Of a stretch of DNA of 56,007 bases, positions 1-15,337 are shown piece by piece; position 1 is the first letter of the stretch; each line of letters opens with the position of its first letter. The stretch is from a virus (Duplodnaviria > Caudoviricetes), in the IMG/VR virus record IMGVR_UViG_3300042389_001858, positions 1-56,007 of that record; one strand, given 5' to 3'. Under the pieces are notes generated by a model that was not told the origin of the DNA, searched no databases, and worked only from the letters and a program-made list of their open reading frames with translations. Both the position numbers and the translations under genes were made by a program.

Positions 1-108
1 AGAAGGTAGTCTTTCGACTCCGCTTCGAGTTGGGACAGTGAAGGTGGCTTGGAATTCCTTTCCAACCCCAAATTGATCCTGTATGAATTGGAGATCCCGC
101 CTCCGCGA
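1..108 (+). repeat. Exact 108-bp copy of 1041..1148
   Basis: agaaggtagt...ctccgcga is identical at 1-108 and 1041-1148; the sequences diverge after it. Confidence 0.95.
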
Positions 109-1122: not shown

Positions 1123-1827
1123 ATGAATTGGAGATCCCGCCTCCGCGAATTGGCCGTCCGTAGTGGGAGGGCGGTGGAGTTCTCCGTAGCTTGGGCGCGG
1201 CGGCTCAATGGGTTGTCGCCCGAGGCACGGCGGCGGTTGGGGGCGTTGAGGTCGCAGACGCGGCAGACGGGTGGGAAGTTGGGGCAGGGCGCGGATTTTC
1301 GTGTGTATGAATCCTTCACTCCGGGGCGCGGACGCACGGTGACAAAGACGCTGATCCCCGAGGCGCTCCCTGAGCGGGATCAAGTGATGGCGGCGGTGAA
1401 GAAGTCTTGGGGCGAGGCGGAGGCGTCCCCGGCTGGAAAATTCGCCGCCCTTCCGGCCGGTTGGCACAAGGCCGGTTATGTGCAGGATCGCATGCTCGAT
1501 CCGCAATACAAAAGCACTTTTAGAAAAGGGTATATCCATCCCGAGAGAAAAGAAAGGGTGGTCGGCTCTCGGTTTGCCGAAAAAATCTCAAGCGGGTTCG
1601 ATCGAGGTCGCGGTGCGGCCTACAATATGCCAATGGGAGCGAATGATTCCAGTTTGACCATAAGGAGCAGAGGCACCTACGAACGCCTGCGCCGCAAAGT
1701 CCAGATCGACGCCCACAACATCATGCTCGACCCCCGTAAACGGCGCTTGGTTTTGACCGATCCGCTGGGTTGGCAATCGTCGTCCACTCAGATCGGGGCG
1801 CTCACGCCCGGACCGGCGGTGCGTTGA
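1123..1827 (+). CDS. Protein-kinase-like protein with N-terminal LRELAVRS..VEFS tag (putative head cargo)
   Basis: KLGQGADFRVY resembles a Gly-rich loop, a Lys follows in VTKTL, and DAHNIMLD...LVLTDP resembles the catalytic and Mg-binding loops. The N-terminal tag is shared with other head-region ORFs. Confidence 0.6.
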   Translation: MNWRSRLRELAVRSGRAVEFSVAWARRLNGLSPEARRRLGALRSQTRQTGGKLGQGADFRVYESFTPGRGRTVTKTLIPEALPERDQVMAAVKKSWGEAEASPAGKFAALPAGWHKAGYVQDRMLDPQYKSTFRKGYIHPERKERVVGSRFAEKISSGFDRGRGAAYNMPMGANDSSLTIRSRGTYERLRRKVQIDAHNIMLDPRKRRLVLTDPLGWQSSSTQIGALTPGPAVR

Positions 1828-1848
1828 CCAATCCCCGGTAAGCGTATG
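1823..1848 (+). promoter_or_regulatory. GTTGAC-N15-18-start motif (first copy; putative late promoter)
   Basis: TTGAC at 1824 lies 17 nt before the portal ATG. The same motif occurs with TTGAC at 4836, 5081, 5290, 11396, 11926, 15501, 18944, 26380, 34401, 40983, 41489, 42098, 50018 and 50897, and at 16735 with a 22-nt gap. Confidence 0.75.
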
Positions 1849-3570
1849 AATTTTCTCGATCGGGCGGTTTCGTTTTTCAATCCCCAGGCAGGCGTCCAGC
1901 GGGCGTTTGCGCGGGAGAAGCTCAAGGCGTTTGGATACGATGCGGCGCATCCGGGCACGGCGCGGGGCGGGAGCGGGGGGCGGAACAAAAATGCGTCCTC
2001 GGAAACTTGGCGCTCCCAGCGGGATCGGGTGCTTCTCATGTGGGATGCGCGGGATGTGGTGAGGAATTTCGCGCTCCTGCGCGGCATCGTGGCCCGCATC
2101 GTGCAGTATGTGGCCGATACCGTGCAGTATGTGTCGCAGACGGGGGATGAGGAGATCGATTCGCTCTACCAGGATTATTTCCATGCGTGGTGCGAGCGGG
2201 CGGACATCACGGGGCGTCACCGCCTCGGCGATCTGGTGTGGATGCTGGTGTGGGCGATCATCGTGGATGGCGACCACGGGTGGCATATCGTTTCCGTGGA
2301 TGAGAATGGCAAGCAAGTGCCAAAAATCCAACCCATCGAGGCCGACCGCATCGGGGATCCGAACAGCCCGATCAACCCCGGCGAGGACAACAATATCGGC
2401 GGGATTTTTGTGGATGAGATGGGGCGTCCGCTGAGCTACAAAATCTTCAAGCGCGAACGCCGCACGGCGCAGTATTCTTTTGACCGCGAGGTTCCTGCGG
2501 ATCAATTCATCCACATTTTCGATCCGCAACGGGTGGATCAATATCGGGGCGTCTCGGCCTTGGCCACGGCGATCGCGCCCGCCCGCGATCTTTACGAGAT
2601 TTACCAGTTCGAGAAAACGGCGGCGAAGTGGCAGGCGGGCTACGCAGGGTTTGTGAAAACGCCCGATCCCACGCGCGGCGATGGGGGCGTTTCCGCTTGG
2701 AATGGCACGACTACCGGCAAGCCGGGTGCCTCGCCCATGGGCCTCATGGAAGTGGCCCCAGGAAAAATCCAACGCCTCGCGGCGGGCGAGGATATCCAAT
2801 TCGCCCCCGGCACGAGCCGTCCGGGCGGGGCGTTCATGGCGCTGGTGCAGGTGATGGTGCGCGAGATTTCCAGCGGGCTGAATATGCCGTATGGGTTCCT
2901 TTATGACATGACGGCGTTCTCGGGCCACACGGGGCGCATCGAGATCGCGCAGGCGATGCGCGGCATTCGCCGGATGCAAAAACTCGTCGGCGAGAGAGCA
3001 TTGAATCCCGTGCGGGATGCGGTGATCGGCTACGGCATCGGCATGGGCGAGTTGCCGCCGCATCCGCAATGGCGTAATGGCCGGTGGGGCTTCGGGCGTT
3101 CCCTCACGGGGGACTACGGGCACGATACCACGGCAAATCTCCAGATGCTTCAGAACGGCCTTGTCACGGCCAGCGATTTGATTTCCGAGACGGGGCAGAG
3201 TTTCGAGGAAGTGGTGAGGCGCAGCGCGAGCGAAGTGGCGTATATGCAACGGGTCGCCACCGAGACGGGAGTTCCGATCGAACTCTTCAACCAGCGGATT
3301 CCGAATCCCACGCAAGCCCTCGCCGCGATGGCCGAGCCGCCGCAACCCCCGCCGCCGGGCCTCGTCCCGCAAGGTATGGATGTGAAGCCGCTCTTGGAGT
3401 TGCTGAAAAATGTGGGCGAGGGGATCATTGATCGGGAGAGCGCGATCATCAACTTGATGAATCTCTACGGCGTGGAACGAATGGCGGCGGAAAAAATGGT
3501 GCCGGACGGGCCGGGGGAGAAGAAGGGTTTGACCGCGGAGGACGCGGAGAACGCGGAGCGTGGGAAATGA
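1846..3570 (+). CDS. Phage portal protein, lambda family
   Basis: ARDVVRN, IEADRI, HIFDPQRVDQYRGVS and RLAAGEDIQF are typical of lambda gpB-type portals. Position is upstream of the head genes. Confidence 0.92.
   Translation: MNFLDRAVSFFNPQAGVQRAFAREKLKAFGYDAAHPGTARGGSGGRNKNASSETWRSQRDRVLLMWDARDVVRNFALLRGIVARIVQYVADTVQYVSQTGDEEIDSLYQDYFHAWCERADITGRHRLGDLVWMLVWAIIVDGDHGWHIVSVDENGKQVPKIQPIEADRIGDPNSPINPGEDNNIGGIFVDEMGRPLSYKIFKRERRTAQYSFDREVPADQFIHIFDPQRVDQYRGVSALATAIAPARDLYEIYQFEKTAAKWQAGYAGFVKTPDPTRGDGGVSAWNGTTTGKPGASPMGLMEVAPGKIQRLAAGEDIQFAPGTSRPGGAFMALVQVMVREISSGLNMPYGFLYDMTAFSGHTGRIEIAQAMRGIRRMQKLVGERALNPVRDAVIGYGIGMGELPPHPQWRNGRWGFGRSLTGDYGHDTTANLQMLQNGLVTASDLISETGQSFEEVVRRSASEVAYMQRVATETGVPIELFNQRIPNPTQALAAMAEPPQPPPPGLVPQGMDVKPLLELLKNVGEGIIDRESAIINLMNLYGVERMAAEKMVPDGPGEKKGLTAEDAENAERGK
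3532..3558 (+). repeat. 3x 9-bp tandem repeat (NNCGCGGAG) encoding TAEDAENAE at the portal C-terminus
   Basis: accgcggag-gacgcggag-aacgcggag. Confidence 0.7.
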
Positions 3571-4544
3571 AACTTTCGGATACGGAAAAAGCGGTTTTCC
3601 GTCATTATTATCGCAAGCTCAAGAAGCTGACGCGCAAGGGCGGGCTTCGTGACGGAAAGGCTGAATCGCTTGGGATTGGCGGCGTTATGCCTGATATGGC
3701 GTGGAAGGATAAGGCAGCCGGGTTATTATGGCGGGGGGCAGGGCGGCAGGAAATTGAGAAACTGGCTGGGGATGGAAGATTTGTAAGCCAATGGTCGCAC
3801 GCGCTTGGAAAGTCCAGAACCTATACAGCAAGTCTTCCTCGCCGTGCTGCTGGGTATGCCGAGAGCAAATCCGACCCGCGAGTTTATGCTATTTCTCCAA
3901 CGGCATTCAAAAGATCCGATGAACGGGTTCGCCAAGTAAACCACTCTCCAAGCACCACGGCCCCGATACGCGGCGGCATTTTCCGGCATGAGGTTCGTGG
4001 CATTCTCAAGGGATCCGATGGCGGCGCGGACGAGTATGGTCGGAAAAAAGTGCGCTGGCGGCCAGCCTCTTTGGGCGATGTTCAGAATCGGAATTTCTCC
4101 GCCAAGCTCCGCATCAGGGCTCTATGTGCCAAGCTCCGCTTGGTCGAGTTTGGCTACACGAAGCCGGGGTTGCGGGCGCGGATCAAGGCGCGGATCATGG
4201 CGAGTTCCAAGGGCGGGCGTCCAGGCCAATGGAGTGCGCGGAAGGCTCAGCTTGTGGCGCAAGAGTATCGGGCCGAGGGCGGTGGCTACAAGGGCGGCAA
4301 GACGGAATCCCAGAAATCCCTCCGCAAGTGGACGCGGGAAAAGTGGCGCACGCGATCCGGCAAGCCCAGCACACAGGGAAGCGAGGCTACGGGCGAGCGA
4401 TACCTGCCCGACAAGGCGCACAAGAGCCTTTCGCCACAAGAGTATGGGGCCACGACTCGCGCCAAGCGGGAAGGATCGCGGCGCGGCGAGCAATTCGTGA
4501 GGCAGCCCGAGCGCATCGCCAAAAAAACGGCACGGCACCGATGA
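3567..4544 (+). CDS. Two-module basic protein with a DUF5872-like C-terminal domain after an internal tag (putative head cargo)
   Basis: The linker FSAKLRIRALCAKLRLVEFG (4095-4154) is followed by YTKPGLR..SSKGGRPGQWSARKAQL..GGGYKG..ERYLP, which I recognise as the DUF5872-type family. Confidence 0.7.
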   Translation: MKLSDTEKAVFRHYYRKLKKLTRKGGLRDGKAESLGIGGVMPDMAWKDKAAGLLWRGAGRQEIEKLAGDGRFVSQWSHALGKSRTYTASLPRRAAGYAESKSDPRVYAISPTAFKRSDERVRQVNHSPSTTAPIRGGIFRHEVRGILKGSDGGADEYGRKKVRWRPASLGDVQNRNFSAKLRIRALCAKLRLVEFGYTKPGLRARIKARIMASSKGGRPGQWSARKAQLVAQEYRAEGGGYKGGKTESQKSLRKWTREKWRTRSGKPSTQGSEATGERYLPDKAHKSLSPQEYGATTRAKREGSRRGEQFVRQPERIAKKTARHR

Positions 4545-4744
4545 GCGACCACGCCGACGAGTTGTATTTTTTGTTGAATGATGCGATCTCGTATCTGCAC
4601 CACCATGGGCACGGGGAAAAGGCCCGACAGATACAAAAGGATCGGGACAAGATTATGGAGAGCATTGAGTGGTTTCCAGCGCGCGGCAGCGAGGGCGGCT
4701 CGCCACTAAGTCGTGGCTCGGGGCGGGCGAGTAGGCGTTCGTAA
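4541..4744 (+). CDS. Small hypothetical protein
   Basis: ATGA overlap with the upstream stop. The 3' third overlaps the predicted RNA structure. Confidence 0.45.
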   Translation: MSDHADELYFLLNDAISYLHHHGHGEKARQIQKDRDKIMESIEWFPARGSEGGSPLSRGSGRASRRS

Positions 4745-4835
4745 GGACGGTCCGAGGCCCTTACTCGACGCGGTGCAAGCCGCGCTTTATCGAGGAAGCG
4801 CATCGAGCGGCCGAGCGACCTGGCCCGCGCGCTGG
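4676..4835 (+). ncRNA. Candidate structured RNA (multibranch, GNRA tetraloops)
   Basis: Perfect 11-bp closing stem 4676-4686/4825-4835. Inner 8-bp stem 4728-4735/4760-4767. Hairpins cgttc-GTAA-ggacg, cgcggt-GCAA-gccgcg and gcgag/ctcgc. Confidence 0.5.
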
Positions 4836-4856
4836 TTGACTTTCGGGATATTCATC

Positions 4857-5084
4857 GTGAAAACACAATCCCTCTCAGCCAATCAATCGAAAAAGTTCAG
4901 CAAGACAATTCGCCTCCCCGAGGGGTGGGTGGGGCCGCGCGAGCGGCGGTGGTTTGTGGAGTTGAAGGCCGATATGGCGCGCGCCGAGCAATACTTTTGG
5001 CGACAAACTCCAGAGCGGCGGAAAGTCCAGAGGGAATACTTGAGGGGCAAGACTTGGGGGAATAACAACTTTTGCTTCAGTTGA
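4857..5084 (+). CDS. Small basic hypothetical protein (GTG start)
   Basis: GTG lies 16 nt after GTTGAC. The stop TGA falls inside the next GTTGAC. Confidence 0.6.
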   Translation: MKTQSLSANQSKKFSKTIRLPEGWVGPRERRWFVELKADMARAEQYFWRQTPERRKVQREYLRGKTWGNNNFCFS

Positions 5085-5100
5085 CTGGAGTGTTGGCGGT

Positions 5101-8100
5101 ATGTCGCTGCCGCTGATTGAAAAAGCCTACGATTTATACAAGACAAAAAAGAAACGGCCCTGGGCGTTTAAGAAGGCCGCGGATTCTGCGAAACTGCTAA
5201 GCCCTGCGCAGAGTGCCCAGCTGTTCAAGTTGGCAAAAGGCATGAGGAAATCGGCAAATCCCGAGCTTTATCCCGAGCAGATGCGGTTGTTGACGGTGGG
5301 GCGCTCGGGTATGAAGTTGCGCGAATTTCGTTATTACCCCTACCCTGGCAATCCTTACGATAAGGATTTTGCCCAAGAGCGTGAAAAGGAACGGCGGCAC
5401 GGGCTGATCAAGGCCGGGTTGGTGGGGGCGGGCTTGCTGGGTGGCGGCGCGCTGGTGGGGCGCGGGTTATTTAGGGCGGGCGTAAGTGCTGCTGCGCGTC
5501 GTGCCGATGACTTGGCGCGGGAGGTTGATTTTCTGAAAACTGCGAAAAAGGCCGAGAAATTGGATGAGGTCGCCCCTGCCGCAAAGTCCCGCAAGCCGAT
5601 CAAAGTCGCCGCCACGCCTCCGCCCGCTCCGAAAACGACGCTGCCGCCGCCTCCGCCGCCAGCGCCTCCCGCCGCGGTGGATAAAAGCATCCAGGCTGAG
5701 GGGCGCAAGCGCGCGCCCGTGCAGACGAAGGCCATCGAGCAGTTGAAGGACAGCGGCCAGATCAGTCAGTCCGATGCTACCGCCGAAATCCAAGAGATCG
5801 TAGCCGGAGCAAAGCCTACGCGTAAACTCACTCCAAGGCAACAGGTTTTGGCAAAGCGGCAAGCGAAGGTCGCTAAATTCGCGTCTGCCCAATCGTCGGC
5901 TGCTCCTGCGCCCGCCGTTCCGAAGGCGCCCGCGCCTCCCAAGGCGAAGCCAAAAGCGGCGCCCGCGCCTGTTCCCGCCGCGCGCGCGAGTGATGAGTTT
6001 TGGGAGAAGGAGGGTCTTGGCAAGGTTCCGCTTACAGGCACGCCCGAGCAGAACGCCGCCCTGCGCAAAAAGTTGGAAGAGACTTATGCCGCCGGGGGAT
6101 TCAAGGGAAGGGTCAAGGGCGATGTGATCGATGATGTTCGTGCATCCCTGGCAAAAGCGGGTGAGTCAGCTGGAAAATCCGATTTTCCGCCGGGACTCAG
6201 CGAGGCGCTTCGGCAGGAGGCGAAGAAAAGCAACCCGCCCAAGGCTGCCAAAAAATCCAAGAAATCAAAAGCTGAGGATGATGATTTGGATGATCCGGGC
6301 GCCTCTCCTGAAGAGGCGGAATGGGAGGAGGCTCTTAATAAAAACCAAAAACCAGAGCCGAAATCCAAGTCAAAGGCGTCCAAGGCCCCCGCTAAAGGCG
6401 AGAAGCTTTCCTACGCAGAAAAAATCGCCGCCCGCGTCAAGGCGAAGCGCCAAAAGAAAAAAAATCTCGCCGACCGCCTACGCGGCATCCGGTATTTCAA
6501 TTTTCAGACCGACGAAGGCGGCATTCCTTTCACCGGCAAGGTGGCGAAAGACCGCTTCATTAAGCAAATTCGCGATCAGGACTTGCGCCGCCGCGATTCC
6601 AATCTGCTTCGTGCCGGTGCGGCGGGGGCTTTGGCCGGGGTGCTTTTCCGCGGCAGGCTTTCCATGGGCAGGCGCGCGCTGATTGGGGCGGGTTTGGGTG
6701 CCGGAGGAGTGATTGGCACGAGGGCGATCACTGATCGCACCCGCGATGTTTACGGCGAACGCAGCCACGAGGCCATGCGCGCCGAAGCCCTCCCGGCCAT
6801 TGCCGGACTCGGCACCGCCGGATGGCTCGCCACCCGCCGCATCCGCGGCCTGGCCGCAAAGTTTCGCGGGGTGAAGGAGTTTTCGATTCTCAATAAAATC
6901 TCCAACCTCACCGGCATGGCGCAAATCAAGGCCGGGCGCGAGGCTTTGGAGAAGGCGAAATCGAATAGGCAATTGAGAGATATTTATCGCGCCGATGCCA
7001 TCAAGCAGAATAAGTTCCCTTACAGAGATTCTGACCTTCAGTATGAGATCGAAAGTGGCATGAGGCATAGGGCTATTGCCAGAGGCACTTATGCTAAGTA
7101 TGATGTCCGGCGAGCCAGAAACCTCATCAACGAAGGCATCCGCCGCCGCAACATTTCCATCGGAGTCGGTGCGGGAGTTGCAGGTTTAGGCGCGGGGGCG
7201 GGGTATCTCGCCACGCGCAAGGAATCCAACCTCGCCGCGAAGCTGCGCGGCTTGAAAGAATTCGAGGACTACAAGCTCTACTACTTCAAGGGGCGCAACA
7301 CCGGCATCGCGGCCCGCAGTGCCGATGAGGCCCGGAAGAAGAAAAAGCGTGGCGGCGACGAGCTTGTGGCCGTGCGCACTCCGAACAAGACGGAACGCAG
7401 TCAGATGGCGCGAGGCATTTGGGTTCGCACCCGCCGCGATGGCAAAAGCCCCGGTCAATCCCGCTACGGCAAGGGGAGGGGACAAGGGCCAGCCCGCAAG
7501 AAAGAAATGTCCGCCAAATTTTTCGAGAAACGCGATAAGGAAAAAGGCGGGCTGAATCCCTATGTGGGCGCGGCGTTGTCGGGCTTCGGCAGCGGAGCGG
7601 CCTTGGGATCGCTGGCCCTGCTTCGGCGGGGTGCCACATTCCGCAGCGCGGCCAAGACGGCTGGAAAGCTCGGTCTGGCCTCGGCGGGAATCGTCGGCGG
7701 CGGAGCGTTGCTCGGCAGCAAGATCATCGGAAATCCCAGGGATGACGAAAGCGCGCCATTTACCAAGCGGGCCGCCATCGGCGGAGCCTTGGTGGGATCG
7801 GGCGCTGGATTGGCCGGTGCGCTCCTGCTTCGTCGGACCAAAGGCGGCGCGAGGGCGCTGGTCGGAGCATCCAAAAAAACCGAACCTTTTTCTCGCCCCG
7901 CCATGTGGCTTCGTAAAACGCCTCTCGCAGGCGCGGCGGGCATCGGCGCTCTCGGTGGTGCGCTCTACGGCGGGGCCATGGGCGCGGACGAAGGCCAGCA
8001 AGTCGATTCCATTCGCAATCTGCGAAAGGATTTGAAGAAGGAAATGTCCGCCCGTCTCCTTCGCGCGCGTCTGCGGCTGTTTGGTCGGGGGGATCAGGCG

Positions 8101-8976
8101 CGGTGGGATGCGCAGGGAACGAATGAAGATGCCCGATTTGCTAATACCGCCTGGGGGTGGGCTGTGGATCGCCCGATGTATATCCCGAGGCGCGACAAGC
8201 AGGGGCGTGTCGTCAAGGATCCGATCACAGGCGAAGCCATGCGCCAGCGTTGGGAGGCGAATACTCCGCAACTTTGGAATTCCGTAGCCCGCGAGGCGGG
8301 GCGCCAGCGCGTGAATGTGCAGCGCGGAGGCAGACTCTCGCGCGATGTTTTTGATGAAATGCGGGGCGCGCCCCGCCAGCGCGATGCCAGCGGGCGCATC
8401 AAAAAGCGCGAGTGGGAGAAAAGCTGGTTCCAGAATAAAGCCACGGAGATCGGGCTCACGGTAGCTGGATTGGGAGGGTTGGGGGCCATCCGCTACGCGA
8501 ACAACAATCCCGACACCAAGGCGGGCCGCGCCTGGCGCAATACCCAATCGAGTCTGCGCACCACCAAGGACAATCTCGCCGAGATCGGCTCGGCCATCAT
8601 GCGTGGAGCCACGAGCATCACCGCCAGGCGGCGGTTCTCCGCGAAATTGAGGAAACTTCGCGAGCTGGATGCTTTTGCCGAATACCAGGGATGGGATGTC
8701 CGCGATCCGCGAGGCCGCTCCGCCCGCGTCTTCGCGCCCGGCAGCCGCCGCCGCGAGCGCCGCCCCAAGGAGTGGCATGAAAAAACGGAAAACGAGCGCA
8801 AGCTCTGGAAAGCCGGATTGGTCGCCAGCGCGTTGGGTGGCGCGGGAGCAATGCTGGTTGGGCAACGCCTCGTCTCCGGGAAGTCGCTTGTGCCTTCGCG
8901 GTTTCTGCCGAAGAAGCCCGTGATCGATCCCGAAAAGGTGGTGACGGGCGTGAATTTCAAAAAAGGAGCCGCATGA
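5101..8976 (+). CDS. Large modular polyprotein of tag-separated basic and glycine-zipper modules (putative internal head/ejection protein); second start at 5311
   Basis: Tags at 5311, 6466, 6850, 7231, 7504, 8041 and 8635. Several GxxxG hydrophobic segments and a Pro/Ala/Lys-rich disordered region. Confidence 0.75.
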   Translation: MSLPLIEKAYDLYKTKKKRPWAFKKAADSAKLLSPAQSAQLFKLAKGMRKSANPELYPEQMRLLTVGRSGMKLREFRYYPYPGNPYDKDFAQEREKERRHGLIKAGLVGAGLLGGGALVGRGLFRAGVSAAARRADDLAREVDFLKTAKKAEKLDEVAPAAKSRKPIKVAATPPPAPKTTLPPPPPPAPPAAVDKSIQAEGRKRAPVQTKAIEQLKDSGQISQSDATAEIQEIVAGAKPTRKLTPRQQVLAKRQAKVAKFASAQSSAAPAPAVPKAPAPPKAKPKAAPAPVPAARASDEFWEKEGLGKVPLTGTPEQNAALRKKLEETYAAGGFKGRVKGDVIDDVRASLAKAGESAGKSDFPPGLSEALRQEAKKSNPPKAAKKSKKSKAEDDDLDDPGASPEEAEWEEALNKNQKPEPKSKSKASKAPAKGEKLSYAEKIAARVKAKRQKKKNLADRLRGIRYFNFQTDEGGIPFTGKVAKDRFIKQIRDQDLRRRDSNLLRAGAAGALAGVLFRGRLSMGRRALIGAGLGAGGVIGTRAITDRTRDVYGERSHEAMRAEALPAIAGLGTAGWLATRRIRGLAAKFRGVKEFSILNKISNLTGMAQIKAGREALEKAKSNRQLRDIYRADAIKQNKFPYRDSDLQYEIESGMRHRAIARGTYAKYDVRRARNLINEGIRRRNISIGVGAGVAGLGAGAGYLATRKESNLAAKLRGLKEFEDYKLYYFKGRNTGIAARSADEARKKKKRGGDELVAVRTPNKTERSQMARGIWVRTRRDGKSPGQSRYGKGRGQGPARKKEMSAKFFEKRDKEKGGLNPYVGAALSGFGSGAALGSLALLRRGATFRSAAKTAGKLGLASAGIVGGGALLGSKIIGNPRDDESAPFTKRAAIGGALVGSGAGLAGALLLRRTKGGARALVGASKKTEPFSRPAMWLRKTPLAGAAGIGALGGALYGGAMGADEGQQVDSIRNLRKDLKKEMSARLLRARLRLFGRGDQARWDAQGTNEDARFANTAWGWAVDRPMYIPRRDKQGRVVKDPITGEAMRQRWEANTPQLWNSVAREAGRQRVNVQRGGRLSRDVFDEMRGAPRQRDASGRIKKREWEKSWFQNKATEIGLTVAGLGGLGAIRYANNNPDTKAGRAWRNTQSSLRTTKDNLAEIGSAIMRGATSITARRRFSAKLRKLRELDAFAEYQGWDVRDPRGRSARVFAPGSRRRERRPKEWHEKTENERKLWKAGLVASALGGAGAMLVGQRLVSGKSLVPSRFLPKKPVIDPEKVVTGVNFKKGAA

Positions 8977-9623
8977 CCGATCCCCGTCCCCGCAACAACC
9001 AGGGTCAATTCGCCCCGCAGGGCATGGACGGCATCGATGCCAACACCACATCCACGGCCTACAATCCGCAACTCATCGAGCAACGCAAACTCTCGCTGAT
9101 CGAAAAAATCCGCCGAATGCGCGGCGTGCGCAATGGCGTGGAGGAATCCGTGCCGCAGCAATTCTCCATGAAAACAAAACTCCGCCTGCGTGAACTGGCT
9201 CGCCAGACCTTTGATCCCTACGCTCCGCAACCCGCCCAACCTGGGCAGGGATCGCAGGATTTCCGCAATGCGGCGATCGGTATTGGCGCTTTGGGGGTGG
9301 GTGGCGGCGTGGCCTATGCCGGATGGCGCGGAGCGCAGGCCGCCAAGAGCGCGCAAGTGCTCACGGATGATGCGTTGAAAACCTCTGCCGAGGCTCGCAA
9401 AGCGGCTCGATCCGCCCGAGTCGCCGCCGCCCGCATGGGTCGCGCAGGCAAAGCAATCAAGACCCAACTCACCACTTTCCCGACATTCCGCAAAGCCGGT
9501 GGCGCAATCCGAAAGGCGCTCCGCTTCGAGGCTGACCTGGGGAGGTTGAGGGAACTCGCGGCCAGAAGCGAGCTGGCAAATGAAATGCGACGCCAGCGAA
9601 ACGCGGAGGCGAAGAAGAAATGA
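8973..9623 (+). CDS. Tagged basic protein with a glycine zipper (putative head cargo)
   Basis: PRNNQGQF motif, tags FSMKTKLRLRELA (9162) and FEADLGRLRELAARSELA (9525), and a GIGALGVGGG segment. Confidence 0.7.
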   Translation: MTDPRPRNNQGQFAPQGMDGIDANTTSTAYNPQLIEQRKLSLIEKIRRMRGVRNGVEESVPQQFSMKTKLRLRELARQTFDPYAPQPAQPGQGSQDFRNAAIGIGALGVGGGVAYAGWRGAQAAKSAQVLTDDALKTSAEARKAARSARVAAARMGRAGKAIKTQLTTFPTFRKAGGAIRKALRFEADLGRLRELAARSELANEMRRQRNAEAKKK

Positions 9624-10633
9624 AAAAACAAACCTGGGCCTCGATCGCCCGCGATAGCGCGGAGAAGGCGCACAAGACCGAAGTGGATTCGCTCAAGGCG
9701 AAGCTCGCGCAATACGCGCAAACGGTTTCCGATCTGGAAAAGCAACTCGGCATCGCTCTCACGCTCGGCAAGGCGAAGGTGAAGTCGCGCGCCATGGAGG
9801 TTTCCATGCAGGACAAGGCCGAAGCCGTGGCCGTGGCCCTGCTCTCGGATGTCCACGCCGAGGAGGAAGTGACCAGCGCCTCCGTGAATGGCTTGAACGA
9901 ATACAGCCTCGCCATCGCCGAGGAGCGCATGGCGAAATTTTTCCGCACCACCGCCCGTCTCACCGAGATCGAGCGCGGCGGGGCTAAGATCGACACGCTC
10001 GTGCTCTGGCTTGGGGGCGATTTGTTCTCGGGAATGATCCATGAGGAACTCATGGAAACCTCCAAAAAAACGCCCACACAGATGATCCTCTGGCTGCAAG
10101 AGCGGCTCATGGAGGGCATCGCCACGCTGAAGCCGCATTTCGAGAGAATTTTGGTTCCCACCTCGTATGGCAACCACGGGCGCACGACCAAGAAGCCCCG
10201 TCACGCCACGGGGGCCGCGCACTCCTACGAGTGGCTCATGTATAAGATCCTCGAAGGCCGCTACGCCTCGGACAGCCAGGTGGAGTGGCAGGTGGCGGAT
10301 TCGTATTTCAACTATGTGAATCTTTACGGCAGGACGCTGCGGTTCCACCACGGGGACAATCTGAAATACAACGGGGGCATCGGCGATATTTCGATCAGCG
10401 TGAACAAGGCGATCGCTTCCTGGAACAAGGGCGCGAACCGTGCCGACCTCGATATTTTTGGGCACTGGCACCGGTATATGCAGCACTCGAACTGGCTCTG
10501 CAACGGATCCGTGATCGGATACAACGCCTTTGCCTTGAGTATCAAGGCTCCCGCAGATGAAGCGCCCTGTCAGACTTTCTTCCTCTACGATAAAAAGCGC
10601 GGGCGCACCGTCACCTCCCCGATTCTTCTGTGA
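9620..10633 (+). CDS. Calcineurin-like metallophosphoesterase
   Basis: All five motifs are present: SDVH, GGD, GNHGR, FHHGD, FGHWH. N-terminal coiled coil. Confidence 0.88.
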   Translation: MKKQTWASIARDSAEKAHKTEVDSLKAKLAQYAQTVSDLEKQLGIALTLGKAKVKSRAMEVSMQDKAEAVAVALLSDVHAEEEVTSASVNGLNEYSLAIAEERMAKFFRTTARLTEIERGGAKIDTLVLWLGGDLFSGMIHEELMETSKKTPTQMILWLQERLMEGIATLKPHFERILVPTSYGNHGRTTKKPRHATGAAHSYEWLMYKILEGRYASDSQVEWQVADSYFNYVNLYGRTLRFHHGDNLKYNGGIGDISISVNKAIASWNKGANRADLDIFGHWHRYMQHSNWLCNGSVIGYNAFALSIKAPADEAPCQTFFLYDKKRGRTVTSPILL

Positions 10634-10645
10634 ACCCACACGCCT

Positions 10646-11113
10646 ATGCCAGACTGGAAAAAACTCCTCGCCGATCAACAGCGCCGCAAATACTCAAACG
10701 ATCCCAACCGCCAATGGAGCACCTATTCCAGGCAGGGCTGGGAAAAGGCCGAGCGCATCGCCGAGGAGTTGGATTGCAATCCCAACCAAGTCGGTGTGCT
10801 TTTGAAGGACAGCATTCAAGCCAAGCTCATCGAGCGCGAGGAATTCATGATTTGGAACCGAGAGGCCGATCGTCTTGAGAAGGTGGTGGCCTTCCGGAAG
10901 GTTCGCCCCGGGCAGCAGGCTGCGGGCGCAAAGGCCAAGCCTGTAAAAATGCCAAAGCCGGCGGCAGGAATGCGGGTGCGCAGCCGGCGGGGCCACTTCG
11001 GGAAAATCAAGTCCATCTCGGGGTCGAAGTGTGAAATTGTTTGGGATTCGGGAACAATTACCAATCCGGGGCTGAAGGCCTTTAAAAAAAGAGACATCCT
11101 TGTGGAGCCATGA
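10646..11113 (+). CDS. Hypothetical protein (possible HTH plus SH3-like C-terminus)
   Basis: 155-aa ORF in the operon. IAEELDCNPNQV resembles an HTH; GMRVRSRRGHFGKI..EIVWDSG resembles an SH3/KOW fold. Confidence 0.6.
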   Translation: MPDWKKLLADQQRRKYSNDPNRQWSTYSRQGWEKAERIAEELDCNPNQVGVLLKDSIQAKLIEREEFMIWNREADRLEKVVAFRKVRPGQQAAGAKAKPVKMPKPAAGMRVRSRRGHFGKIKSISGSKCEIVWDSGTITNPGLKAFKKRDILVEP

Positions 11114-11116
11114 GCC

Positions 11117-11386
11117 ATGAAAAAAAAGCAGGCGAGCGGCGGCAAAAAAGAAAAGGGACCGTGCGAGAATCGGCGGGAAATCCTCGAGGCAATCAAGAGC
11201 CAGCTTGCTGAGCATTTTGATGCCGGGGTGGGCATCGTGTGCTATGAGCAGTCTGCGGAAACGCATTTCTTCACCTTCCAGTTTGGAAACTCGTTTGCCG
11301 TGGAGGCGATGGGCAACAAGCTGCAAGAAACCATCTCCGAGTCTTCTGCGGATGATGATGGCGACGAGGAGGAGGAAGAGGATTAG
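11117..11386 (+). CDS. Hypothetical protein with an acidic tail
   Basis: 89-aa ORF filling the gap before the protease gene. Confidence 0.6.
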   Translation: MKKKQASGGKKEKGPCENRREILEAIKSQLAEHFDAGVGIVCYEQSAETHFFTFQFGNSFAVEAMGNKLQETISESSADDDGDEEEEED

Positions 11387-11417
11387 CCGTTTTCGTTGAC
11401 GCGCCCCGGTATGGGGC

Positions 11418-12731
11418 ATGGCAGACCTTAAAGAATTTTTTGCTCCGTTCGTTACGCAGAAGGTCGATCCGTCCAACGGAATCATCTATGGCGTTTCGGT
11501 GATCACCAGCGGGATCAAGGCTCGCGGGCACGATCTCGAAGTCGATGCCACGACCCTCTCGCAAATCAAAGAATGCGCCGAAAAGCTCGGCACCGTTCCC
11601 GTAAAGTGGAACCACCGCACCGGCGCGGATGCCGTGGCCGGGTATCTCGAAAATTTCCGCATCGAGGGGGGGAAGCTCCTTGGTGATTGGCACCTTCTTA
11701 AGACCCACGCGCAATACGGCCAGGCTATTGAAATGGCGCAGCGCATGCCGCGCAATGTGGGCCTCTCCGCCGCGTTTATGGGCGAGGATGAAGTGAGCGG
11801 CGGTTCCAAAAAGGCCCGCTGTTCCGAACTGATTTCCGTGGATCTCGTGGCGCAACCCGCCGCGAACCCGAACGGGCTCTTCGAGGCGAAGCTCCCCTCC
11901 GATCCTACGGAACTTGCCTCACAAGTTGACACCTCCACTTCTAACCGTATGGATCAAAACACCAACACCAACACCAACGCAGCGGCGGCCGAAGAGCCTT
12001 CTATGAAGGATGTCCTGGCGGCCCTGAACAAGCTCACTGAGCAGGTTACTGCACAGCAAGAGTCCATCGCCGCACTGCAAGGTGCGGGCAATCAAGATGC
12101 CGAGGAGATTTCCCTCGAAGAGATCATGAATCTCTCCGACGAGGACATCGCCCAGCTTCTCCAGGCCGGTGAAATCACCGAAGAGGACGCCGCCGGGATC
12201 AAGGCTTATCAAGCCGAAGTCATCGCCGCCGTCGAAGCCGAAGAGGCTGGCGAAGGTCAAGAGGACAAGGGCGAACTCGCCACTGCTGGAGCCGCCGCCG
12301 ATGGCAGCGATAGCTCCTCCACCGGCTCATCTGCCGAACTTTCCGCACTTCAAAAGCAGGTCAAGGAACTCAGCGCCCGTTTCGAGCGCGAAGATGCCGC
12401 CGCCGAGAACGCCGAAATCGAGCACTACTTTTCCACCATCGAGGGCAACCTCACCGCGCTGGCCGAAGAGAAGGCCAAGCTCACCGAGTTGAGCGAAAAG
12501 CTCCAGGCCGAGAACGAGGCCCTGCGCCACGCGGTCAAGACCGGCACCCGTCCGCTGGCGTTCAGCGCTGAGGGTCGCGCCACCACTGGCAGCCAGGGCG
12601 AACTTCACGAGTTTGATGCGCGCGTGAAGGCCCACACCGACTCGGGCAAAACCCACGCCCAAGCGGTCATGCTGGCTCACAAAGAAAATCCCGAAGCCCA
12701 CCAAGACTGGATTCGGAACCAAAACAAGTAA
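11418..12731 (+). CDS. Prohead maturation protease fused to scaffolding domain
   Basis: The N-domain has KWNH, GLSAAF and SVDLVAQPAANPNGLF (HK97/assemblin-type His/Ser pattern). The C-half is an acidic coiled coil. It lies just upstream of the capsid genes. Confidence 0.85.
   Translation: MADLKEFFAPFVTQKVDPSNGIIYGVSVITSGIKARGHDLEVDATTLSQIKECAEKLGTVPVKWNHRTGADAVAGYLENFRIEGGKLLGDWHLLKTHAQYGQAIEMAQRMPRNVGLSAAFMGEDEVSGGSKKARCSELISVDLVAQPAANPNGLFEAKLPSDPTELASQVDTSTSNRMDQNTNTNTNAAAAEEPSMKDVLAALNKLTEQVTAQQESIAALQGAGNQDAEEISLEEIMNLSDEDIAQLLQAGEITEEDAAGIKAYQAEVIAAVEAEEAGEGQEDKGELATAGAAADGSDSSSTGSSAELSALQKQVKELSARFEREDAAAENAEIEHYFSTIEGNLTALAEEKAKLTELSEKLQAENEALRHAVKTGTRPLAFSAEGRATTGSQGELHEFDARVKAHTDSGKTHAQAVMLAHKENPEAHQDWIRNQNK
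11949..12731 (+). CDS. Nested in-frame scaffolding protein (own start)
   Basis: An in-frame ATG lies 18 nt after an internal GTTGAC, at the protease/scaffold boundary. Analogous to lambda C/Nu3. Confidence 0.7.
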   Translation: MDQNTNTNTNAAAAEEPSMKDVLAALNKLTEQVTAQQESIAALQGAGNQDAEEISLEEIMNLSDEDIAQLLQAGEITEEDAAGIKAYQAEVIAAVEAEEAGEGQEDKGELATAGAAADGSDSSSTGSSAELSALQKQVKELSARFEREDAAAENAEIEHYFSTIEGNLTALAEEKAKLTELSEKLQAENEALRHAVKTGTRPLAFSAEGRATTGSQGELHEFDARVKAHTDSGKTHAQAVMLAHKENPEAHQDWIRNQNK

Positions 12732-12749
12732 CCAAGGAGAAAAAATACC

Positions 12750-13106: not shown

Positions 13107-13136
13107 CGATCACCACAACATCAAGGACCAACAACC

Positions 13137-14096
13137 ATGCCTTACAATACCACAGATTCCGTTCCTCGGCAGGATATCAGCACTCTCCTCATGGAGGCTG
13201 TCCACCAGGAGAAACACTACATCGCCCCCATGCTTCTGCCCATCTACGGCAGCGAGCGCGAGGTCGGTCGCTATCCGAAATTCACGATCGGCAAGTGCGA
13301 GCTTCTCAAGCGCGAGAGCCAGAAGCGCGGAGCCACCGGCACTTACAACGAGAGCGAAGAACTCTTCGAATGGGACAGCTACCAGACCGCTGAATACGGC
13401 CACGAGAAACGCATCGATGATGTCGTGCGCAAGCAAATGCGCGACTTCTTCGACGCGGAAATGGTCACGGCCAAGTTCTGCTCGAACAAGCTGATGCTGG
13501 ATTACGAAGTGGAGGCGGCTACCGCCCTCTACAATCCCTCAACCTTCACCGCCACCTCGGCGGGCACCGCCTACACCGAGGCGAACCTCGACACCATGGA
13601 TGTCCCTGCGGATATCAATGCGCTCATCGAGTCGCTCACCCTCGTCGGCGAAGAACCGAACACGATGGTCCTGAGTCTCCCGCTCTTCAACCGCATCAAG
13701 CGCTCGAAGAAGCTCCAGACCTACCTCTACGGCCACCTGAACACCACGCAGGGCGGCTCGAACATCACCAGCCAGATCATTGCCGACGCCTTTGGCATCG
13801 CCAATGTCATCGTCGCCAAGAAGAGCCACGACAACGCCATCAAAGGCAAAACCAATGTCGTGCCCGTCTGGTCGAACAACTACATCTGGATCGGCGATGT
13901 GCAGGGCGGCGACTTCATGAACGGCGGCGCTGGCCGCACGATCATCTGGGATGCCGACTCCGAAGGCGGTCTCTTCACCTCGGATCAATACCGCGACGAA
14001 GCCCGCCGCGGCGACAAGATCCGCGTGCGCAGCAACCGCGTGATCAAGATCATCAACCCGAATTCGGCCCGTCTCATCACGACGAACTGGGCCTAA
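13137..14096 (+). CDS. Major capsid protein
   Basis: 319 aa with EPNTMVLS and strongly C-ending codons. Position follows scaffold and decoration genes. Confidence 0.85.
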   Translation: MPYNTTDSVPRQDISTLLMEAVHQEKHYIAPMLLPIYGSEREVGRYPKFTIGKCELLKRESQKRGATGTYNESEELFEWDSYQTAEYGHEKRIDDVVRKQMRDFFDAEMVTAKFCSNKLMLDYEVEAATALYNPSTFTATSAGTAYTEANLDTMDVPADINALIESLTLVGEEPNTMVLSLPLFNRIKRSKKLQTYLYGHLNTTQGGSNITSQIIADAFGIANVIVAKKSHDNAIKGKTNVVPVWSNNYIWIGDVQGGDFMNGGAGRTIIWDADSEGGLFTSDQYRDEARRGDKIRVRSNRVIKIINPNSARLITTNWA

Positions 14097-14102
14097 CCGG
14101 AT

Positions 14103-14140: not shown

Positions 14141-14152
14141 CCACTCTTTCAC

Positions 14153-14226: not shown

Positions 14227-14245
14227 CCTTCCACACCACAACCGC

Positions 14246-14280: not shown

Positions 14281-14799
14281 ATGAAGAAACTCGACCTTAA
14301 GACCAACCTCCGCGAACTCGCGGCACGCTCCGAAAAACTCAAGGAATTCGCCATGGTGCGAGCCGCCGATGGCCGCTTCATCGAAGTGGACGAGGAGGAT
14401 GCGGGCATGAGTGCAGGCACGGCGATCAAAGCCGGAGCCGGAGCTGCCGCCTTGGGTGGCGCAGGCTACGGAGCCTACCGTGGCCATCAGGCAATCATGG
14501 GCAAATACGGCACTCGCGGCTTGCTCGAAAACATCGATCCCAAGCTCCCTGCCGCCTACGCCAAGACTTCCGCCGCAGGCACCGCCGCCGCTTCGCCGAT
14601 GCAGGCCTACCGCTCCGCCGCCACGGATCTCGGCAACACCATTTCCAGCCGCGCCAGCCAAGGCTTGGCCGCCGGCAAAACGGCTTATGCCCGCCTCGGC
14701 GACCGCGCCACAGCGGCAGCCAAATACCCTGGCTTCACGCTCGGCCGCATCGGCCGCGCCATCCGCAAGGGCCTCGGCGCAGCGCTCAAGCTCCGCTGA
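14281..14799 (+). CDS. Tagged glycine-zipper protein (putative head cargo)
   Basis: Starts MKKLDLKTNLRELAARSEKLKEFA. Contains RAADGRF and GAGAAALGGAGYG. The ORF-track start at 14167 lies inside the tRNA and is rejected. Confidence 0.75.
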   Translation: MKKLDLKTNLRELAARSEKLKEFAMVRAADGRFIEVDEEDAGMSAGTAIKAGAGAAALGGAGYGAYRGHQAIMGKYGTRGLLENIDPKLPAAYAKTSAAGTAAASPMQAYRSAATDLGNTISSRASQGLAAGKTAYARLGDRATAAAKYPGFTLGRIGRAIRKGLGAALKLR

Positions 14800-14802
14800 T
14801 CC

Positions 14803-15012
14803 ATGAACCTTAAACTCCAACTCCGCGAACTCGCCGCCCGCTCCGAGCGGGTGGTGGAGCTGGGTGCTGGCGCAAATATTGCGAATCTTATGCCCACCAA
14901 TGCAGACAGGGCGGCTGCCCTGCCTAAGGCTGCGGCTGCTGATAAAAAATTGGCCGATATTAAAAAGGGGCTTCTCGAGCGAATCGCGCAGAATCAGACG
15001 CAAAAGAAATAA
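14803..15012 (+). CDS. Small tagged protein (putative head cargo)
   Basis: Starts MNLKLQLRELAARSERVVELG. Confidence 0.75.
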   Translation: MNLKLQLRELAARSERVVELGAGANIANLMPTNADRAAALPKAAAADKKLADIKKGLLERIAQNQTQKK

Positions 15013-15019: not shown

Positions 15020-15337
15020 ATGAACCTCAAAACTCAACTCCGCGAACTCGCCGCCCGCTCGCAGCGGGTGGTGGAACTGGCGCGTGGGGATTTTGCGATC
15101 CCGGCCATGAAGAAGCTTCTCAAAAAAGGCATCGGCAACGGGGGCGACCCTGTTTCGATCGCGGAGATCGGCTCGTCTGGAACCACGGTTCCTTCCTTGC
15201 GCGGCAATGCAGCCAATGTCCGCCGCGCCTTGAATAAATTCTGGGAAAGCCCGCATTCCATGGCCGAGGCCGAGGGATTGATGCGCGGAAACCGCAAATG
15301 GGCCGCGCAGACGATCCGCCAGGCGCGCAGGCGTTAA
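15020..15337 (+). CDS. Small tagged protein (putative head cargo)
   Basis: Starts MNLKTQLRELAARSQRVVELA. The first ~60 nt are nearly identical to the 14803 gene. Confidence 0.75.
   Translation: MNLKTQLRELAARSQRVVELARGDFAIPAMKKLLKKGIGNGGDPVSIAEIGSSGTTVPSLRGNAANVRRALNKFWESPHSMAEAEGLMRGNRKWAAQTIRQARRR

What the first reader, a model, noticed from the sequence alone, without database searches (positions are those of the whole stretch)
5101..8976. 1291-aa polyprotein that looks like about 8 small cargo genes fused through tag linkers
Seen: tags at 5311, 6466, 6850, 7231, 7504, 8041 and 8635 divide the ORF into modules of roughly 70-385 aa. Most modules carry a GxxxG/AxxxG hydrophobic segment flanked by Arg/Lys (GLVGAGLLGGGALVG, IGAGLGAGGVIG, GVGAGVAGLGAGAGY, AIGGALVGSGAGLAG). 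The stand-alone genes at 8973 and 14281 have the same tag-plus-glycine-zipper layout. Internal linkers often have a candidate site at both ends ([FLM][SA]A...E[FL]), as if excised whole. Inference: a polyprotein releasing membrane-inserting peptides, such as an ejection channel or membrane effectors.
Basis: partly seen in the sequence, partly recalled or inferred. Interest (0 to 1): 0.8.

Follow-up and report, generated by a model that had tools for sequence, protein, structure and literature searches.

The report
Tag-jointed modular phage head protein
An uncultured phage encodes a giant, very basic head-region protein built from exchangeable modules joined by one conserved short helical tag, which probably marks where the capsid protease cuts it into small internal proteins, though no cut has been measured.

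Summary
ORF 5101-8976 (1291 aa, net charge +133, no Cys, no Pfam or PHROG match) lies between the portal and the protease-scaffold/capsid genes of an uncultured, roughly 96-kb long-tailed phage.

- **The tag is real.** Seven ends of the form hydrophobic-x-(E/x)-F/L divide the ORF into eight modules. Four are strong copies of a 17-residue amphipathic tag and three are degenerate but conserved. On 16 related sequences the tag occurs 67 times on the coding strand and 0 times on the other. In 13 of those 67 it is the N-terminal leader of a small head-module gene.
- **The short end of the tag also occurs elsewhere.** It sits at the protease's own N-terminus and near the scaffold's C-terminus.
- **Homologues differ at the tags.** Modules are present or absent, M4 sits in the neighbouring gene, M6 and M3 are swapped in a few, and M5 exists elsewhere as a free 72-92-aa gene with the same boundaries.
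- **There is a fixed backbone.** The glycine-zipper modules M3 and M6 are never free-standing, and M3-M6-M7-M8 keep a mostly fixed order.

Best reading (0.55): a protease-processed internal head protein. It is a new variant of the T4 and giant-phage propeptide theme and of "polyvalent proteins". Cleavage, packaging and any membrane role are untested.

The parts
5101..8976 (+). Giant modular ORF (P0001, 1291 aa): net charge +133, 264 K+R, 0 Cys
   Evidence: no Pfam or PHROG family; 183 homologues of 710-2260 aa, all unnamed
5101..5328 (+). M1 (aa 1-76), ending in the short tag MKLREF (nt 5311-5328)
   Evidence: E75 and F76 kept in all 19 aligned homologues; M1 recognisable in 4 of 120 homologues
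5329..6498 (+). M2 (aa 77-466): a glycine zipper (aa 101-125), then a Pro/Ala/Lys-rich stretch, ending in a strong tag (nt 6451-6498). Possible extra joints at F260 and E299-F300.
6499..6882 (+). M3 (aa 467-594): three Gly/Ala-rich uncharged stretches, ending in the tag RRIRGLAAKFRGVKEF (nt 6835-6882)
   Evidence: present in 89 of 120 homologues; never a separate gene
6883..7263 (+). M4 (aa 595-721): helical hairpin plus one glycine zipper, ending in the tag RKESNLAAKLRGLKEF (nt 7216-7263)
   Evidence: inside the giant ORF in only 6 of 120 homologues; in the neighbouring 8973-like gene in 8 mapped proteins, a ninth (P0258) by listing only
7264..7524 (+). M5 (aa 722-808): small basic domain (LYYFxGRNT...YGKGRGxGP), ending in the degenerate tag EMSAKFF (nt 7504-7524)
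   Evidence: free-standing 72-92-aa homologues align with it end to end; F808 kept in at least 90% of 40 sequences
7525..8082 (+). M6 (aa 809-994): four Gly/Ala-rich uncharged stretches, ending in the degenerate tag EMSARLLRARLRLF (nt 8041-8082)
   Evidence: F994 kept in at least 90%, G995 invariant; never a separate gene
8083..8667 (+). M7 (aa 995-1189): a better-folded N-terminal part, the conserved KKREWEKSWF motif with a glycine zipper, ending in the tag TARRRFSAKLRKLREL (nt 8620-8667)
8668..8973 (+). M8 (aa 1190-1291): family-wide C-terminal anchor GWDVRDPRGRSARVFAPGS...EWHEK followed by a glycine zipper
   Evidence: present in 118 of 120 homologues; phmmer with aa 1071-1291 found 280 representative proteins at E<=1e-3, nearly always matching at their C-terminal end
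1123..1827 (+). Small gene with a 20-aa N-terminal leader tag (nt 1123-1182)
   Evidence: its body lies inside 239-608-aa ORFs (441-608 in three of four loci) in relatives
3567..4544 (+). Post-portal gene with an internal double tag (aa 177-195, nt 4095-4151) between an N-terminal domain and a DUF5872 domain
   Evidence: the N-terminal domain is fused to the giant ORF in L007, L008 and L012
8973..9623 (+). Second tagged gene: a tag-like stretch at nt 9162-9212, then a glycine zipper, then a leader-like tag at nt 9537-9587 just before the stop
   Evidence: homologues are 335-972 aa and carry more modules
11418..12731 (+). Prohead protease (aa 1 to about 165) fused to the scaffold. Carries MADLKEF at its N-terminus (nt 11418-11438), GELHEF near its C-terminus (nt 12597-12614) and a leader-like segment at nt 12348-12392.
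   Evidence: H38, S117, E398 and F399 invariant in 9 sequences; the best fold matches are herpesvirus proteases and T4 gp21, weakly
14281..14799 (+). Small gene with a 23-aa leader tag followed by a glycine zipper
14803..15012 (+). 69-aa gene with a 20-aa leader tag
15020..15337 (+). 105-aa gene with a 20-aa leader tag
1846..3570 (+). Portal protein (context)
   Evidence: PF05136, E 1.1e-51
13137..14096 (+). Major capsid protein (context)
   Evidence: phrog_1005, E 8.9e-30

Best explanation
P0001 is an internal head protein of a long-tailed phage, built as a chain of modules joined by one conserved amphipathic tag of about 17 residues. The tag has hydrophobic residues at -13, -10, -6, -3 and 0, and ends hydrophobic-x-(E/x)-F/L.

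The proposed mechanism has four steps.

1. The tag brings the protein, and the small tagged proteins encoded nearby, into the procapsid, possibly by pairing with the scaffold.
2. The phage's own herpesvirus/T4-type prohead serine protease cuts at the end of each tag. It would also cut at the same short motif on its own N-terminus and near the scaffold's C-terminus.
3. The cuts release strongly basic pieces of 76-390 aa. Most carry glycine-zipper hairpins; one (M5) looks like a nucleic-acid-binding mini-domain.
4. The pieces stay with the DNA and leave with it at infection.

Shown here: the tag, its distribution, the joints, the module exchange, and the shared short motif on the protease and scaffold.

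Inferred: loading, cutting, residence in the capsid, ejection, and any action on membranes or DNA.
For: **Tag statistics.** 67 hits on the coding strand against 0 on the other, over 16 sources. 128 hits against 0 in reversed homologues. In the window all 8 strong copies lie in the head region, nt 1135-15082.

**Tag logo**, from 56 distinct copies:
- position 0: F 43, L 13
- position -1: E 37
- position -3: L, V or I in 53
- position -10: L 43, F 13

**Leaders.** 13 of 67 tags are N-terminal leaders, with a Met 18-28 aa before the final F/L.

**Selection acts on the peptide.** Tags 584 and 711 share 10 of 17 residues, but 6 of those 10 use different codons.

**Joints coincide with tags.** (59 of 227 block starts against 6.1% expected).

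**Distant relatives.** They keep only x-(K/R)-x-x-F at every module start. One lineage uses LSAREELxxIIEF four times.

**Protease and scaffold.** LKEF at the N-terminus and E398-F399 near the C-terminus are conserved in 9 sequences. The protease domain has invariant H38 and S117, and its best fold matches are herpesvirus proteases and T4 gp21.

**Fusion form.** In P0156 the protease domain is fused through AREF and KHEF motifs to an M6-like module.

**Structure model.** In the AlphaFold model all five tags in aa 467-1291 fall in stretches with pLDDT below 50, between better-predicted modules.

**M5.** It is a free gene elsewhere with the same boundaries, often in head modules.

**Distant homologues.** Some carry the InPase domain that Iyer et al. 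2017 assign to virion-packaged polyvalent proteins.
Against: - No proteomic or biochemical data exist; cleavage and packaging are unmeasured.
- The protease assignment is weak: model pLDDT 60, best Foldseek E 4.7e-3, no Pfam or PDB sequence match.
- Glu at -1 is replaced in 19 of 56 tags. A strictly Glu-specific T4-type cut does not fit, and the scissile bond is unknown.
- M3 and M6 never occur as separate genes, and module order is mostly fixed. An uncleaved multidomain protein would show the same pattern.
- Free-standing M5 genes have no leader.
- This head region also holds an exonuclease-like gene and an SSB gene, so position alone does not prove a virion role.
- Low pLDDT is also seen outside the tags.
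Confidence: 0.55

Rival explanations
1. An uncleaved giant internal or portal-associated virion protein, that is a polyvalent-type protein. The tags would be repeated docking helices that bind the scaffold, capsid or DNA, and are not cut.
For: - The backbone M3-M6-M7-M8 is collinear in 116 of 120 homologues, and M3 and M6 are never separate genes.
- Iyer et al. 2017 note that some polyvalent proteins, such as N4 vRNAP, are packaged unprocessed (passages).
- The tag is an amphipathic helix, and its best in-frame non-tag match in the window lies in the scaffold.
Against: - The same tag is an N-terminal leader directly after Met in 13 genes.
- The only part of the tag kept in distant relatives is its last few residues, ending in F. 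That suits a cut site better than a docking helix.
- The same short motif sits at the protease N-terminus and near the scaffold C-terminus.
- The M5 boundaries equal those of a free gene.
Confidence: 0.17
2. An assembly-only core protein, comparable to the T4 core proteins. It would help build the procapsid, be chopped at the tags by the protease and be expelled before or during DNA packaging, so it is not delivered cargo.
For: - The tags resemble a scaffold segment, and the scaffold carries the same short motif.
- The SPN3US passages state that propeptides generally leave the head and are cut at several sites.
Against: - Module content is highly variable (20 architectures), and enzymatic or DNA-binding-like inserts occur in homologues (InPase, DUF6321, M5). 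Neither is expected of an essential assembly core.
- A net charge of +133 suits residence with DNA.
Confidence: 0.13
3. Non-virion membrane proteins made in the infected cell, for example for superinfection exclusion, lysis timing or membrane remodelling. The tags would be juxtamembrane amphipathic helices.
For: - There are 11 Gly/Ala-rich uncharged stretches flanked by Arg/Lys.
- Sub-threshold Pfam glycine-zipper hits occur in one homologue.
- Non-structural genes also sit in this head region.
Against: - Only two stretches reach a 19-residue hydrophobicity of 1.6.
- The position between portal and protease is conserved across relatives.
- The motif is shared with the protease and scaffold, and a protease-cargo fusion exists.
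- The lysis genes lie elsewhere, at about nt 50000-51500.
Confidence: 0.08
4. The tags are only recombination scars or linkers left by cassette exchange, with no function as peptides.
For: Module exchange happens at the tags. A 108-nt exact repeat ends inside the leader-coding sequence of gene 1123.
Against: Tag copies are conserved as peptides while differing in codons. The hydrophobic periodicity and the terminal F/L are kept in 56 distinct copies. The DNA repeat search found only the four leader copies as a family, at 62-89% identity.
Confidence: 0.02

Closest known systems
Phage T4 internal proteins (IPI-III, Alt) with the N-terminal capsid targeting sequence, removed by the prohead protease gp21
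   Same: A short conserved leader on otherwise unrelated head-internal proteins, ending at the protease's cut motif. The proteins are basic and leave with the DNA. The protease has the herpesvirus-protease fold; T4 gp21 (5jbl) is among the fold matches. The T4 facts are recalled, supported by the titles listed and by the passage on T4 propeptides in PMC10052503.
   Different: Here the tag is also repeated inside one ORF, so up to eight or more modules hang on one chain. The tag is longer (about 17 aa), helical, and ends in F/L rather than strictly in Glu. The cargo is mostly glycine-zipper hairpins. The phage is a roughly 96-kb long-tailed phage with a lambda-family portal.
Prohead proteases of the giant phages SPN3US (gp245) and phiKZ (gp175) and their processed ejection proteins
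   Same: Motif-directed cutting (A-X-E) of many head proteins, short (20-24 aa) or long N-terminal propeptides, several cuts within one protein, and self-cleavage of the protease (PMC10052503, passages).
   Different: A different motif; no evidence there of one tag joining exchangeable modules; a much smaller genome here; no cut has been measured here.
Polyvalent proteins of phages and conjugative elements (Iyer, Burroughs, Anand, de Souza, Aravind 2017, PMC5512222)
   Same: Very long multi-module proteins encoded beside portal and head genes and predicted to be packaged and injected. That paper itself draws the analogy to viral polyproteins. Distant homologues of P0001 carry its InPase domain.
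   Different: P0001 has no recognised effector or peptidase domain. In the paper, release is proposed through embedded peptidases. Its main text contains no occurrence of 'transmembrane', 'glycine' or 'linker'. Its supplementary files on an FTP site were not seen and might list members of this family.
Pfam glycine-zipper families (Gly-zipper_YMGG PF13441, glycine zipper 2TM PF05433)
   Same: Short Gly/Ala-rich hydrophobic hairpins with GxxxG spacing.
   Different: No window module reaches any Pfam threshold. Only one homologue, P0110, gives sub-threshold hits: 22.0 and 20.9 bits against cut-offs of 28.9 and 24.2.

Membership tests
Protease-processed internal head proteins with a targeting leader (T4 CTS type) | The phage encodes a prohead protease of the herpesvirus-protease/gp21 fold | tested here: inconclusive
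   The N-terminal domain of 11418-12731 has invariant H38 and S117 in 9 sequences. The model has pLDDT 60.4. The top Foldseek rows are herpesvirus proteases (best E 4.7e-3, probability 0.96) and T4 gp21 5jbl (E 4.6e-2); none reaches E<=0.001. No Pfam or PDB sequence match.
Protease-processed internal head proteins with a targeting leader (T4 CTS type) | One short conserved leader at the N-terminus of several otherwise unrelated head-module proteins | tested here: met
   Four window genes (1123, 14281, 14803, 15020) and 13 of 67 tags on 16 sources have a Met 18-28 aa before the terminal F/L.
Protease-processed internal head proteins with a targeting leader (T4 CTS type) | The leader ends in a motif shared with the protease's and scaffold's own processing sites | tested here: met
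   LKEF at the protease N-terminus and E398-F399 near the scaffold C-terminus are conserved in 9 sequences. This is agreement of motifs only.
Protease-processed internal head proteins with a targeting leader (T4 CTS type) | The proteins are cut at the motif, reside in the capsid and are ejected | not testable with these tools
   Needs virion proteomics or biochemistry.
Polyvalent proteins (Iyer et al. 2017) | Many (2-15) distinct domains in one polypeptide of a phage or plasmid | tested here: met
   Eight tag-delimited modules; 20 architectures among 120 homologues.
Polyvalent proteins (Iyer et al. 2017) | Encoded among portal and head genes | tested here: met
   Lies between the portal (1846-3570) and the protease-scaffold (11418-12731) in the window and in relatives.
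Polyvalent proteins (Iyer et al. 2017) | Contains recognised effector or enzymatic domains of that collection | tested here: not met
   P0001 and its separate modules match 0 Pfam families. InPase PF18823 is found only in distant homologues: 5 of 8 scanned, plus P0168.
Polyvalent proteins (Iyer et al. 2017) | An embedded peptidase domain for self-processing | tested here: not met
   No peptidase family in P0001. An HEAGH string in homologue P0148 has no Pfam support.
Pfam glycine-zipper families | Profile match above the gathering score | tested here: not met
   No hit for M3, M6, M8, the N-terminal part of M2 or the 8973 body at E<=10.

The most novel reading that the evidence does not exclude
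A general cargo-loading system of tailed phages that has not been described. One amphipathic tag, resembling a scaffold segment, both docks any protein to the assembling core and is the protease's cut site. Cargo modules can then be swapped, fused or split at the tag. The glycine-zipper pieces released would assemble in the host membrane at infection, as a pore, a DNA conduit or a depolarising agent. Unchecked earlier notes of this scan describe similar tagged glycine-zipper head polyproteins with other cut codes in at least seven other genomes, which would make this a widespread theme.
Probability: 0.3. Interest if true: 0.8.

Novelty: new variant of a known kind. Interest (0 to 1): 0.62.

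Why it matters
If the tag is both a loading signal and a cut site, it is a portable address for putting chosen proteins into a phage capsid. It would also be a key for reading which genes of uncultured phages encode injected proteins. It would extend the T4 and giant-phage rule of a leader plus a protease motif to mid-sized long-tailed phages that probably infect Verrucomicrobiota. It would further show a polyprotein strategy in a DNA phage that depends on the capsid protease rather than on embedded peptidases. The glycine-zipper products would be a new class of candidate membrane-active injected peptides.

Tried and rejected
**Searches that gave nothing useful**
- tblastn of P0001 against 50,697 phage records: no match. 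The capsid protein found only 5 records at 24% identity or less.
- PDB sequence search with the protease-scaffold profile: no meaningful hit, best E 0.35.
- ESM Atlas with aa 1071-1291: only unnamed viral clusters, scores 0.79-0.83, below the useful range.
- Fold search of the 825-aa model: only generic helical hairpins for M4 (EsxA, Z 9.3, below the level that means anything for helices). The other parts were barely tested.

**A weak lead**
- A scaffold segment (VKELSARFER) ranks 8th of 87,317 ten-residue windows against the long-form leader matrix, but two chance hits score as high or higher. I keep it only as a lead.

**Not run**
It was never accepted because the queue was full, so there is no result.

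- The first ORF-length script for the M3/M6 loci had a frame error and was redone.
- Searches failed on out-of-frame coordinates. One search was corrected. One search was not repeated.

**Ideas considered and dropped**
- Sec or Tat signal peptide: the leader is amphipathic and basic, with no hydrophobic core and no twin-arginine pattern.
- Tape measure protein: a separate tape-measure-like gene exists at 18944-22405.

**Literature**
- Searches (listings and abstracts only) showed no description of tag-jointed glycine-zipper head polyproteins. In one search none of the 15 listed papers contained 'glycine zipper'.

Full report
**Setting.** The window is a whole 56,007-base viral record, linear, with an estimated completeness of 58%. 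Related contigs reach 95-98 kb. All long ORFs lie on the + strand. The first 16 kb form a head region:
- portal, 1846-3570 (PF05136, E 1.1e-51)
- a 437-aa protease-scaffold, 11418-12731
- a small head protein, 12750-13106 (phrog_673)
- major capsid protein, 13137-14096 (phrog_1005, E 8.9e-30)
- a head-closure-like gene, 15958-16290

An exonuclease-like gene (9620-10633) and an SSB gene (15461-15961) are interspersed. Downstream lie a tape-measure-like protein with hydrophobic and coiled-coil stretches (18944-22405), tail proteins, a holin and an endolysin. The phage has no close relative among 50,697 deposited phage records. Capsid-protein relatives lie on contigs binned with Verrucomicrobiaceae, Verrucomicrobiia and Chthoniobacter genomes. 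This suggests the host phylum but does not prove it.

**The observation.** ORF 5101-8976 encodes 1291 aa and matches no Pfam or PHROG family. It has 264 Lys+Arg, a net charge of +133, no Cys and 11 uncharged Gly/Ala-rich stretches of 12-21 aa. GxxxG occurs 26 times against 14.6 +/- 3.3 in shuffles.

I built a 17-residue matrix from regex seeds and iterated it on the window plus 15 related loci. It finds 67 copies on the coding strand and none on the other. An HMM of the copies finds 128 in 120 homologues and none in their reversed sequences.

In the window the strong copies are at nt 1135, 6451, 6835, 7216, 8620, 14302, 14815 and 15032, and nowhere in the other 40 kb. They coincide with breaks between BLAST blocks.

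From 56 distinct copies the logo is: F/L at position 0 in all, E at -1 in 37, L/V/I at -3 in 53, L/F at -10 in all. Hydrophobic residues at -13, -10, -6, -3 and 0 make it an amphipathic helix. Copies agree as peptides while using different codons.

**Where else the tag occurs.** It is the N-terminal leader, with a Met 18-28 aa before the final F/L, in 13 of the 67 copies. These include window genes 1123, 14281, 14803 and 15020. It also occurs:
- inside gene 3567-4544, between its N-terminal domain and a DUF5872 domain
- twice in gene 8973-9623

The short end of the motif is also found at the N-terminus of the protease (MADLKEF) and near the C-terminus of the scaffold (GELHEF). E398 and F399 are invariant in nine sequences down to 39% identity.

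The N-terminal 165 aa of that protein have invariant His38 and Ser117. A moderate model (pLDDT 60.4) matches herpesvirus proteases and T4 gp21 best, but only weakly: best E 4.7e-3, none at or below 0.001.

**Comparison with relatives.** Every related contig has a giant ORF after the portal (1019-1870 aa), usually followed by a second multi-module ORF of 335-972 aa where the window has 216 aa. A protein search found 183 homologues of 710-2260 aa, none with a name beyond 'hypothetical protein'. The C-terminal core alone finds 280 representatives among 1.84 billion proteins, nearly always matching at their C-terminal end.

Mapped onto the window's modules, the 120 listed homologues show 20 architectures. 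Module counts out of 120:

| Module | M8 | M3 | M7 | M6 | M5 | M2 | M4 | M1 |
|---|---|---|---|---|---|---|---|---|
| Homologues carrying it | 118 | 89 | 88 | 69 | 34 | 21 | 6 | 4 |

Internal BLAST block starts fall within 5 aa of a tag end in 59 of 227 cases and block ends in 32 of 211, against 6.1% expected. The homologues are not independent of one another.

- **M4.** It lies in the neighbouring 8973-like gene, inserted at that gene's own tag. This is seen in loci L006, L009 and L010 and in 8 mapped proteins; a ninth, P0258, appears in a listing but was not mapped.
- **Post-portal domain.** The N-terminal domain of gene 3567 is fused to the giant ORF in L007, L008 and L012.
- **Order of M6 and M3.** M6 precedes M3 in 4 of 120 homologues and in a 686-aa minimal form.
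- **M5.** It exists as a free gene of 72-92 aa in about 40 clusters. These align with the module from three to six residues before LYYF to the final GPxRK, exactly the span between the two tags. The free genes often sit in head regions of unrelated phages, for example between a Mu-type portal and a Mu-type protease, or directly after another giant ORF. They carry no leader.
- **M3 and M6.** Against free shuffling, these were never found as separate genes: M6 lay in 24 complete ORFs of 686-1591 aa and M3 in 20 complete ORFs of 686-1870 aa.

Distant relatives keep only a short x-(K/R)-x-x-F at each module start. One lineage uses LSAREELxxIIEF four times. One protein fuses the protease domain through AREF and KHEF motifs to an M6-like module.

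**Structure.** An AlphaFold model of aa 467-1291, made with 40 sequences, is weak overall (mean pLDDT 53.6) and mostly helical. The five tags in this part all lie in stretches below pLDDT 50, between better-predicted modules, but low confidence is not limited to the tags. M4 is a helical hairpin with only generic matches. No module reaches a Pfam threshold, including the glycine-zipper families.

**Interpretation.** The most economical reading joins four facts:
- one peptide tag acts as a leader on small head-region genes
- the same tag sits at every joint of the giant ORF
- its conserved end is shared with the protease and scaffold
- modules are exchanged exactly at it

This is the logic of the T4 capsid-targeting sequence and of giant-phage propeptides. 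In those systems a protease motif ends a leader, proteins can be cut several times, and the protease cuts itself (PMC10052503, passages; T4 details recalled). Here the logic would be applied repeatedly within one chain. The strong positive charge suggests that the pieces stay with the DNA. The glycine-zipper hairpins suggest membrane activity after ejection. Both are inferences.

Which bond is cut is open. A T4-like cut after Glu at -1 fits 37 of 56 copies. A cut next to the invariant F/L fits all 56.

**Relation to polyvalent proteins.** The protein also fits the concept of 'polyvalent proteins' encoded beside portals (PMC5512222, passages). Distant homologues carry that paper's InPase domain. 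P0001 itself has no recognised effector or peptidase domain, and that paper's main text does not mention tags, linkers or glycine-rich membrane segments. Its supplementary files were not seen.

**Rivals.**
- An uncleaved docking-repeat protein.
- An assembly core that is chopped and expelled.
- Non-virion membrane proteins.
- Mere recombination scars.

The report sections weigh each. None explains the leaders, the shared protease/scaffold motif and the M5 boundaries together as well as the best reading does.

**Earlier notes of this scan.** Unchecked AI notes describe comparable tagged glycine-zipper head polyproteins with other cut codes in other genomes. I use them only as a hint that the theme may be widespread.

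**Verdict.** The polyprotein reading is plausible but unproven. The free-cassette picture needs amending to a fixed backbone with exchangeable inserts.

Noticed in passing
window 1-108 and 1041-1148: An exact 108-nt direct repeat. Its right edge falls inside the leader-coding start of gene 1123. Copy 1 therefore gives a truncated leader ORF (ATG at nt 83) just before ORF 115-1116, which lies in a lower-GC stretch. It may be a cassette insertion or exchange at the tag, or an assembly effect at the contig end.
   Followed up: partly
window 9620-10633 and 15461-15961: An exonuclease/metallophosphoesterase-like gene (phrog_284) and an SSB gene sit inside the head region, between tagged genes. Neither carries a tag.
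   Followed up: no
window 9537-9623: Gene 8973-9623 ends 12 residues after a leader-like tag (LGRLRELAARSELANEM). Homologues continue with more modules (335-972 aa), so the window's copy looks like a shortened form.
   Followed up: partly
window 7264-7524; proteins P0263-P0303; loci L033-L063: M5 belongs to a widespread, unnamed family of small, very basic phage proteins (72-92 aa; LYYFxGRNT...KKKRGG...WVRTRRDGKS...YGKGRGxGP), with no Pfam match. It is often encoded next to portal, protease or capsid genes of unrelated phages.
   Followed up: partly
window 12348-12392: The scaffold segment LQKQVKELSARFERE resembles the long-form leader (LKLQLRELAARSERV). It is the best in-frame non-tag match in the window, but not clearly above chance.
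   Followed up: partly
protein P0156 (523 aa): A relative in which the prohead-protease domain is fused directly, through AREF and KHEF motifs, to an M6-like glycine-zipper module, with no scaffold part.
   Followed up: partly
protein P0148 (677 aa): A protein that starts with M5, uses a different tag version (LSAREELxxIIEF) four times and ends in one. It contains an HEAGH string without Pfam support.
   Followed up: partly
window 18944-22405: A 1153-aa protein with hydrophobic segments and long coiled-coil-like stretches, probably the tape measure protein. No PHROG or Pfam hit.
   Followed up: no
loci L029-L031: The closest genome-collection relatives, which have the same portal-to-giant-ORF layout, are on 51-104-kb contigs binned with Verrucomicrobiota genomes. 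A more distant capsid relative in a Desulforapulum contig (L032) lacks the giant ORF.
   Followed up: partly
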